25,555 nt of DNA from Octopus sinensis (Eukaryota): positions 1 through 25,555 of the forward strand of contig NW_021836034.1 of NCBI RefSeq assembly GCF_006345805.1, read 5' to 3'. Shown piece by piece: positions 20,900 through 21,540 of this stretch. Under the pieces are notes generated by a model that saw only the letters and a program-made list of their open reading frames with translations, was not told the origin of the DNA and did no database searches. The translations under genes and the position numbers were made by a program. The stretch's first letter is position 1. Each line of letters begins with the position of its first letter.

Positions 20900-21540
20900 C
20901 GACTCTGTTATTCTTTCAATCTTTCTTTCTTTCTATCAGCCCCTTCACACTTCGTTCTTTACACACTTATTTCTTTCGTTCCTTCTCTTTCACATTTCCT
21001 GGCTTTCTCTTCATTCACATCCCCTCTTTCACTTCTCTCTGTCCCTTTTCTTTTTTTGCTCCTCCCTCCCTAATTATCTATCTATCTGCCTCTACCTCTC
21101 TCTTTCGTTCTTGGTTCCACTATCATCCCTGCAACATCTATATTCCTCCCTATGCCTGCCATCTCTTGCTGTAAAGCTTCACTTCCACACATGCCGGCTT
21201 AACTTAATTCGTCCTTAGTCGAAAGACACCTGTTGTATATGTCCTTTATTTGCATTTGTATTTTCTCTGTTTTTCCCGTCCTTATTTTCGTATACATTCG
21301 CTACTTTCTTCTAAGGAATCTTGTGGTCTTAGCTTAGCTTTTCCTTGGGGCTGGCCAGATTGGAGCAATCTCGAGTATAACCAGCCGAAATTGCAAATAT
21401 AATCTTGAACTCGACTGAAGAAAGGAAGCTCCGAATGACTCGTCCTTGTTCTTTTGTATCGTCTGTCTGGATGTTTTGTTCTCCCTTTTTGATCATCTAA
21501 CTGTTCTGGATGTTTTGTGTTCTTGTCCCATTTTGAGTAT
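20900..21540 (+). mobile_element. Rearranged-hammerhead repeat, variant 3, longest copy
   Basis: CT-rich tract, gtc-GAAA-gac hairpin (21218-27), ribozyme-like module, and a tail with duplicated tctggatgttttgt; flanked by (TA)n. Confidence 0.7.
21295..21437 (+). ncRNA. Rearranged (non-circularly permuted) hammerhead-like ribozyme with intact core
   Basis: ctttctt(21304-10)/aaggaag(21422-28); cattcg(21295-300)/cgaatg(21432-37); hairpin ctaaggaa(21311-18)/ttccttgg(21341-48); ggctgg(21349-54)/ccagcc(21381-86); gcaaUC(21365-70)/GAAAttgc(21387-94); tcgagt(21371-76)/actcga(21409-14); CUGAAGA at 21415-21. Activity untested. Confidence 0.7.

What the first reader, a model, noticed from the sequence alone, without database searches (positions are those of the whole stretch)
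21295..21437. Non-circularly permuted, five-way-junction hammerhead-like ribozyme in a dispersed repeat
Seen: the conserved hammerhead strands occur in the order NUH(21368-70), GAAA(21387-90), CUGANGA(21415-21). Established: all circular permutations (types I-III) keep the cyclic order NUH, CUGANGA, GAAA, so this is the opposite order. Seen: stem III (gcaaU/Attgc) and stem I (tcgagt/actcga) are perfect and in correct register with the core. Stem II is split: bases after CUGAAGA pair with 21304-10, a hairpin (21311-48) follows with no gap, and 21349-54 then pairs with the bases just before GAAA. Inference: a pseudoknotted five-helix junction cleaving after C21370 (AUC). Rearranged hammerheads have been reported in general; I cannot tell whether this topology has been.
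Basis: partly seen in the sequence, partly recalled or inferred. Interest (0 to 1): 0.88.

Follow-up and report, generated by a model that had tools for sequence, protein, structure and literature searches.

The report
New hammerhead ribozyme layout in retroelements
A mobile repeat in this animal genome carries the core of a self-cutting RNA (a hammerhead ribozyme) with its strands in an unusual order and one helix split by two extra helices; matched base changes across its subfamilies support that fold, the RNA likely cuts itself, and the same layout would explain why several Naiad retroelements seemed to lack hammerheads.

Summary
The hammerhead strands lie in the mirrored order site–GAAA–CUGANGA, which is published (type SGC, Eckert 2023). 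The new part is that the strand pairing with the bases before GAAA lies 5' of the cut site, not after CUGANGA. The motif sits in a ~770-nt non-coding, (TA)n-flanked, often tandem repeat with thousands of candidate copies. Across 188 copies in nine groups the core is conserved, N7 is free, and stems I, II and III show compensatory changes; the displaced stem II gives the top-ranked pair. Genomic 5' ends pile up at the predicted site (23 of 80 and 11 of 69 insertions), as expected if cleaved RNA was reverse-transcribed. By eye the same layout ends 9 of 53 published Naiad consensus sequences, from cnidarians to octopus, elements reported to lack canonical hammerheads. Cleavage was not assayed, only one pair passes a tree-based test, and the window copy has a private mismatch. 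Verdict: likely a new hammerhead permutation in a Naiad-linked retrozyme.

The parts
20791..21551 (+). One unit of the non-coding repeat (subfamily A), with (TA)n/(CA)n inside its 5' part and (TA)n after its 3' end
   Evidence: blastn of a tandem unit from L021 against the window, 77% identity
21295..21300 (+). 5' strand of the outer closing helix (pairs with 21432-21437)
   Evidence: MFE fold; RNAalifold consensus of 49 copies
21304..21310 (+). Helix A, 5' strand
21311..21348 (+). Hairpin B, abutting helix A on one side and G10.1 on the other
21349..21354 (+). Displaced 10.x strand of stem II, starting with G10.1
   Evidence: paired in the group majorities; top covarying pair
21355..21361 (+). 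5' strand of the helix joining stems I and II (helix X)
   Evidence: one C-U mismatch in this copy
21365..21370 (+). Stem III strand and C17; predicted cleavage 3' of 21370 (AUC)
   Evidence: 5'-end pile-up in other copies
21371..21376 (+). Stem I strand 1.1-1.6
21381..21394 (+). Stem II 11.x strand, GAAA and stem III strand
21401..21407 (+). 3' strand of helix X; U21406 is G in the subfamily
21409..21421 (+). Stem I strand 2.x and CUGAAGA core
21422..21437 (+). 3' strands of helix A and of the closing helix
15275..15571 (-). Second copy (subfamily B) with a 6-nt deletion and changes in the core region, probably dead
16050..16183 (-). Third copy (subfamily C fragment) whose 5' end lies about 2 nt after the predicted cleavage site, behind (TA)n

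Best explanation
The segment holds a complete hammerhead core in the order cleavage site, GAAA, CUGANGA, with the partner strand of stem II moved in front of the site; it likely folds with two extra helices inserted between A9 and G10.1 and likely cleaves its own RNA after C21370. It is best described as a type-SGC hammerhead opened at a new point, inside the block that Eckert et al. assumed indivisible. Helix A and hairpin B are predicted to stack as a four-way junction with the two halves of the stem II arm, and helix X is predicted to hold stems I and II together. The carrier is a ~770-nt non-coding repeat that behaves like a non-LTR retrozyme. Shown: tandem units, (TA)n flanks, a fixed 3' end, variable 5' ends and a short tail. 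Inferred: tandem transcripts are cut to unit length, some are circularised, and a Penelope-like RT/endonuclease primes at (TA)n on an internal UA-rich stretch. A cut linear RNA would then give short copies that stop at the site, and an uncut or circular RNA would give long and tandem copies. The ribozyme is probably shared by descent with the 3' end of Naiad elements.
For: Core conservation in 188 copies: C3 182, U4 183, G5 182, A6 188, G8 183, A9 186, G12 174, A13 185, A14 185; N7 is A 81, U 62, G 36, C 8; H17 is C 149, A 33, U 4, G 2 (about 18 G/J copies were picked with a pattern that fixes the core). Group majorities pair at all stem I and III positions and at 44 of 45 of the first five stem II positions, with different sequences. 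The five highest of 3570 column pairs, and 11 of the top 19, are among the 33 proposed pairs; the first is in the displaced stem II. About 15.5 double changes on internal branches keep pairing against 0.8 that do not. RNAalifold on a plain MAFFT alignment of 49 copies picks helices A, B, X and III unaided. Of 227 S-G-C cores in the own-genome loci, 179 have the displaced stem II and 0 the ordinary SGC stem II (overlapping loci counted twice). 5' ends within -4..+13 of the site: 23 of 80 in subfamily C (rate ratio 9.0, p 5e-13; 0 in the 18 nt upstream) and 11 of 69 in subfamily A (ratio 4.0, p 3e-4). Upstream tiles with similar TA/AT content show a background rate. One C copy has a deletion starting exactly at the site (L123). 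Naiad 3' ends: 322 matches against 0 control in this genome; of 38 distinct copies 33 keep displaced stem II, 34 stem I, 34 stem III and 0 the ordinary stem II. The same layout is seen by eye in 9 of 53 published Naiad 3' ends.
Against: No cleavage assay and no raw RNA reads. Only 1 of 33 proposed pairs passes E < 0.05 against a tree-based null, two more reach E = 0.72, and helix X ranks poorly (best rank 43), because nine groups give few independent events. Strand registers were set by hand per group (plus or minus 1 nt), which favours the model. The -4..+13 window was chosen after seeing subfamily C; in subfamily A the best 18-nt window is +5..+22 and the contrast with the 18 nt upstream is only p = 0.045. 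Most ends lie a few bases after the site, not on it. The junction is imperfect in groups B, C, D, G and J (a mismatch or 1-2 linker bases). A pseudoknot-free model gives stems I, III and X a probability of 0.01 or less in the window copy, and that copy has a private C-U mismatch in helix X. I found no tested hammerhead with a break between A9 and G10.1. No autonomous partner was shown; sequence likeness to the Naiad ribozyme region is weak (best: 5 of 500 shuffles reach the score).
Confidence: 0.8

Rival explanations
1. The same strands form an active core only between two molecules or two neighbouring units, as with dimeric hammerheads of Penelope-like elements; the single-chain pseudoknotted fold is not the active form.
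For: Units occur in tandem (spacing 735-777 nt). Subfamilies A, B and C have a short near-palindrome between stem III and stem I that covaries. A nested model does not populate stems I and III. Dimeric cleavage of minimal hammerheads is recalled, not read here.
Against: All stems have 5-7 pairs within 145 nt, unlike minimal dimeric forms. The near-palindrome is not kept in groups D, F and H. A dimer would still need the break between A9 and G10.1.
Confidence: 0.1
2. The fold is real but no longer cuts: it is a binding or priming element for the retroelement protein, and the 5' ends pile up because reverse transcriptase stalls at the structure or joins at UA-rich microhomology.
For: Many ends fall at +5..+13 on UAAU-like bases and in subfamily A reach +22. 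Long and tandem copies read through the site.
Against: All catalytic positions are kept while N7 is free and H17 avoids G. The drop in ends is sharp at the site in subfamily C (23 against 0), and AT-rich tiles elsewhere show no excess. Stalls would be expected on the 3' side of the helices (inference).
Confidence: 0.07
3. It is an ordinary type-SGC hammerhead whose stem II is formed by the bases after CUGANGA, or a chance arrangement in a decayed repeat.
For: The order and the short stem I to stem II linker match type SGC. Rfam gives no hit.
Against: 0 of 227 cores can form the ordinary stem II; the bases after A9 pair with those before GAAA in only 33, 8, 56 and 4 of about 187 copies at positions 1-4. 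Chance: 0 hits in 400 shuffles; 692 matches against 1 control for a core pattern.
Confidence: 0.03

Closest known systems
Type-SGC hammerhead ribozyme (HRIMA-1; Eckert et al. 2023, PMC10085705; Methods, Results and part 1 of the Discussion read)
   Same: Block order site, GAAA, CUGANGA; a short linker from stem I to stem II; a helix joining the other sides of stems I and II; all core bases.
   Different: There the stem II strand follows CUGANGA directly, and the authors assume that block cannot be interrupted. Here it lies 5' of the site and two helices fill the A9/G10.1 step. Their examples come from metatranscriptomes, none from a known organism's genome.
Non-LTR retrozymes of animals (Cervera and de la Pena 2020, PMC7229834, passages read; bioRxiv 10.64898/2026.07.22.740005, first two of five parts and passages read)
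   Same: Non-coding tandem units with one hammerhead each, dispersed monomers and multimers, unit size within the reported 51-972 bp, proposed dependence on Penelope-like elements.
   Different: These carry type I hammerheads. Circular RNA was shown for some of them and is only inferred here. Neither text mentions octopus.
Naiad Penelope-like retroelements (Craig et al. 2021, PMC8557442; passages, metadata and the ends of the consensus sequences read)
   Same: (TA)n targeting, 5' truncation, inversions, partial tandems, a 30-40 bp tail; the same ribozyme layout near the 3' end of several families.
   Different: The window element has no ORF. The paper reports no canonical hammerhead in Naiads, only 'HHR_core' and 'HHR_half_core' flags, and calls cephalopod Naiads long inactive, whereas subfamily C here is young (97-98% identity).

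Membership tests
Hammerhead ribozyme (any form) | Core C3 U4 G5 A6 N7 G8 A9, G12 A13 A14, A15.1-U16.1, H17 | tested here: met
Hammerhead ribozyme (any form) | Stems I, II, III paired next to the core, G10.1-C11.1 | tested here: met
   stem II through the displaced strand
Hammerhead ribozyme (any form) | Contact between stems I and II | tested here: met
   helix X in group majorities and RNAalifold; covariation rank weak
Hammerhead ribozyme (any form) | Self-cleavage 3' of H17 | not testable with these tools
   indirect only: 5' ends of genomic copies cluster at the site
Types I, II, III (circular permutations) | Cyclic order site, CUGANGA, GAAA | tested here: not met
   order is reversed; no Rfam hit
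Type SGC (Eckert 2023) | Order site, GAAA, CUGANGA | tested here: met
Type SGC (Eckert 2023) | Stem II strand directly 3' of CUGANGA (intact block C) | tested here: not met
   0 of 227 cores
Non-LTR retrozyme | Non-coding tandem units with one ribozyme each | tested here: met
Non-LTR retrozyme | Type I hammerhead | tested here: not met
   permuted form instead
Non-LTR retrozyme | Unit-length linear and circular RNA in cells | not testable with these tools
   only contigs of runs guessed to be RNA were available
Penelope-like element, Naiad clade | ORF with N-terminal GIY-YIG endonuclease and RT | tested here: not met
   no coding remnant in the unit; it can only be a non-autonomous dependant
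Penelope-like element, Naiad clade | (TA)n target, tail, 5' truncation, inversion, partial tandems | tested here: met
Penelope-like element, Naiad clade | Sequence homology to a Naiad 3' end | tested here: inconclusive
   same layout, weak alignment scores (5 to 253 of 500 shuffles reach them)

The most novel reading that the evidence does not exclude
A hammerhead permutation outside the six thought possible, with the chain opened between A9 and G10.1 and bridged by a four-way junction, is the working ribozyme of many Naiad retroelements across several animal phyla and of thousands of retrozyme copies in this genome. Naiads as a group carry non-circularly permuted hammerheads (this form, and type CSG in nematodes), so their reported lack of hammerheads is an artefact of the search patterns.
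Probability: 0.72. Interest if true: 0.92.

Novelty: new variant of a known kind. Interest (0 to 1): 0.87.

Why it matters
It would break the block rule that limits hammerheads to six permutations and give the first non-circularly permuted hammerheads in animal genomes that my searches could find. It offers a direct, cheap test of an open point in Penelope-like element biology: why Naiads thrive without a canonical hammerhead. It also implies that ribozyme surveys based on type I-III patterns miss whole families. A core that tolerates two helices at A9/G10.1 would be a new attachment point for engineered switches.

Tried and rejected
Rfam scans: no hammerhead model matches. A canonical minimal type I reading of 21415-21443 was considered and dropped: its stem I has no partner and its stems are not kept across copies. 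The intact Penelope-like ORF next to one copy (L081, RVT_1 hit) belongs to a young, abundant (TA)n-targeting family with its own ends and no CUGANGA in the 3' region of the 18 copies printed; it is a candidate helper, not a shown partner. One copy (L172) is joined to an RT fragment of a related family; a single case, not counted. Sequencing runs: no RNA holder listed; contigs of 4 of 24 listed runs hold the repeat but cannot show ends or strand; the second lay did not complete. Exact words of the window motif are absent from the Naiad and Hydra consensus files, and two word searches for the Naiad ORF end found nothing until part 24 was read directly. In one search the helix X register was off by one; one search corrects it. 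In one search the closing helix was also typed one base off, so its probability there is not valid. The precedent of one extra A between A9 and G10.1 in a viroid hammerhead is recalled; it was not found in the passages read. Three look-ups in earlier findings of the scan returned nothing.

Full report
Observation. The cleavage triplet AUC (21368-70) comes first, then GAAA (21387-90), then CUGAAGA (21415-21). Stems I and III are perfect. The six bases before GAAA pair perfectly with 21349-54, upstream of the site, with G10.1-C11.1 at the core. The bases after CUGAAGA pair with 21304-10 (helix A), and hairpin B (21311-48) fills the gap with no unpaired base. A descriptor finds this one hit in the window and none in 400 shuffles. 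Rfam has no matching model. The energy of the segment is ordinary (z = -0.77), and a pseudoknot-free model populates only helices A, B and II.

The carrier. The motif lies in a repeat unit at 20791-21551. A search of the own genome gave 2495 candidates, of which 40 were scored. Copies end at one 3' position before (TA)n, vary at the 5' end, show inversions, a short tail and head-to-tail units. The unit has no coding remnant. The window holds two more copies: a damaged subfamily B copy and a subfamily C fragment that begins about 2 nt after the predicted site. Subfamily C is young: 1077 exact matches of a 39-mer and unit spacings of 735-777 nt. A pattern that excludes the main stem III variant gave 692 matches against 1 for the control and exposed further subfamilies.

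Covariation. I aligned 188 copies in nine groups. The core is conserved while N7 takes all four bases and H17 is C, A or U in 186 of 188. The triplets of the group majorities are AUC, GUC and GUA; AUC is rare in natural hammerheads but cleaves well (PMC1636495, passages). Stems I and III pair at every position in every group majority with different sequences. The displaced stem II pairs at 44 of 45 of its first five positions; G10.1-C11.1 is fixed and positions 2-5 change on both sides. The ordinary alternative, pairing of the bases after A9 with those before GAAA, fails (33, 8, 56 and 4 of about 187 at positions 1-4). In a G-test with background correction, the top five of 3570 column pairs and 11 of the top 19 are proposed pairs. 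Against a null simulated on the tree only one pair, in the displaced stem II, reaches E < 0.05, and two more reach 0.72, so power is low. Double changes on internal branches keep pairing about 15.5 times against 0.8. Registers were set by hand per group, which favours the model. As an unsupervised check, RNAalifold on 49 copies picked helices A, B, X and III. Of 227 S-G-C cores in the own-genome loci, 179 have the displaced stem II and none the ordinary one. The junction is gap-free in groups A, E, F and H and has a mismatch or 1-2 linker bases in the others.

A genomic record of cleavage. If the RNA is cut and then reverse-transcribed, copies should stop at the site. I sampled copies by an exact pattern 3' of the ribozyme, so that the 5' end played no part in the choice. 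For subfamily C, 90 loci from the first 100 of 1077 matches gave 91 rows; 7 duplicates, 2 internal deletions and an inverted pair were dropped, leaving 80. Of these 23 end within -4..+13, none within -22..-5 and 7 within +14..+55: rate ratio 9.0, p 5e-13. That window was chosen after seeing the data, but it is also the best of all 18-nt windows, and the p-value survives a correction for about 600 windows. For subfamily A, the family of the finding, 70 loci from the first 100 of 154 matches gave 74 rows and 69 after dropping 2 duplicates, 1 deletion and an inverted pair. Eleven end in the same window (ratio 4.0, p 3e-4), but the peak is broader and best at +5..+22. Upstream tiles with similar TA/AT content have a background rate. 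Ends a few bases after the site fit joining at UA microhomology with the (TA)n target (inference). One dropped copy has a deletion that starts exactly at the site (L123).

Link to Naiads. Craig et al. 2021 report that Naiads lack canonical hammerheads and flag some as 'HHR_core' or 'HHR_half_core'. I read by eye the last ~420 nt of 53 of their 54 Naiad consensus sequences. Nine show the same layout with stems I, III, displaced II and X: Naiad-3_Chem, Amil, Aacu, Anas, 2_Movir, Plae, EuTe, Obim and Ovul. These amount to six distinct families in cnidarians, an acanthocephalan, a crustacean and octopus; for Plae helices A and B lay outside the text shown. Naiad_Bfor fits with a stem I of only two pairs. 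Six nematode Naiads show type CSG. The remaining 37 show neither form in the stretch seen, or could not be resolved. None of this was computed. The octopus Naiad end is present in this genome (322 matches, 0 control), which suggests an octopus host. Of 38 distinct copies, 33 keep displaced stem II, 34 stem I, 34 stem III, 29 helix X, 25 hairpin B, 17 the three junction pairs of helix A and none the ordinary stem II. Two copies reach back about 910 nt to the last codons of the published RT frame. Sequence likeness between this Naiad region and the repeat's subfamilies is weak, so common descent is likely but not shown.

How it likely works. Shown: strand order, complementary strands, compensatory changes, conserved core, tandem units, clustered 5' ends. 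Inferred: a type-SGC core opened between A9 and G10.1, with helices A and B forming a four-way junction with the stem II arm; cleavage to unit length; circularisation, as shown for other retrozymes with RtcB (PMC7229834, passages); and insertion at (TA)n by a Penelope-like protein. On a circular unit the rest of the element is simply the loop of helix A. Which element supplies the protein is open: the Naiads here look old, while another Penelope-like family is young and shares the target. I put the family-level claim at 0.8 and activity of the window copy itself at about 0.55, because of its mismatch in helix X.

Novelty. Eckert et al. 2023 define six permutations by assuming that CUGANGA and its adjacent stem strands stay together, and found non-circular forms in metatranscriptomes and metagenomes plus one weak bacterial candidate. 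This form breaks that assumption. Perreault et al. 2011 describe core insertions of one or two bases only, in the passages read. Searches for prior reports: 'non-circular permutation' with 'hammerhead', 'hammerhead, Penelope, octopus', 'hammerhead ribozyme, retrozyme, cephalopod', 'between A9 and, four-way junction, G10.1', 'type-SGC', 'rearranged hammerhead, non-circularly permuted' and 'Naiad, ribozyme, permuted hammerhead'. No listing pointed to this form; most listed papers were seen only as listings. Subscription journals are not covered, I did not read the supplements of Eckert et al., and those of the bioRxiv preprint are closed, so a prior mention there cannot be excluded. It remains a hammerhead, so I rate it a new variant of a known kind, with high interest because it makes an open question directly testable.

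Noticed in passing
PMC8557442 File S5, 3' ends of Naiad-1/2/3_Nbra, Hcon, Hpol, Asuum: By eye these six nematode Naiads end in type-CSG hammerheads with stems I-III and an interaction helix; Eckert et al. knew this type from two metagenome sequences only. Asuum has one extra U after A9.
   Followed up: partly
PMC8557442 File S5, 3' ends of Naiad-1_Movir and Naiad-4_Chem: A motif that looks like a twister ribozyme (likeness recalled, not tested); the paper's text does not mention twister.
   Followed up: no
PMC8557442 File S5, 3' ends of bivalve, hemichordate and two Clytia Naiads: A different conserved motif sits at the same place near the 3' end; it may be another structured RNA or ribozyme.
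   Followed up: no
PMC8557442 File S5, Naiad_Smim: Order site, GAAA, CUGANGA with good stems I and III but an unclear stem II.
   Followed up: no
L081:1937-4486 (+), G000:C12: An open 850-codon Penelope-like frame with an RT domain, inserted in the (TA)n right after a copy of the repeat; at least 150 copies at 95-100% identity over its C-terminal part, so a young family.
   Followed up: partly
L172 (G000:C1:134242969-134246500): A Penelope-like RT fragment runs directly into a subfamily F copy on the same strand; possibly a template-switch chimera.
   Followed up: partly
L129, L137, L138: Subfamily C copies that lack hairpin B and part of helix A's 5' strand; two are in one tandem, so the deleted form may have been copied.
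   Followed up: no
window 21395-21407 and homologous places: A short near-palindrome between stems III and I covaries in subfamilies A, B and C and could compete with helix X or aid dimer formation.
   Followed up: partly
window 18298-18677: Two tandem copies of a 190-nt unit at 95% identity, with weaker copies beside them.
   Followed up: no
window 5025-6550: Long (GGT)n tract followed by a (ACC/ACT)n tract, forming a large imperfect inverted repeat of simple sequence.
   Followed up: no
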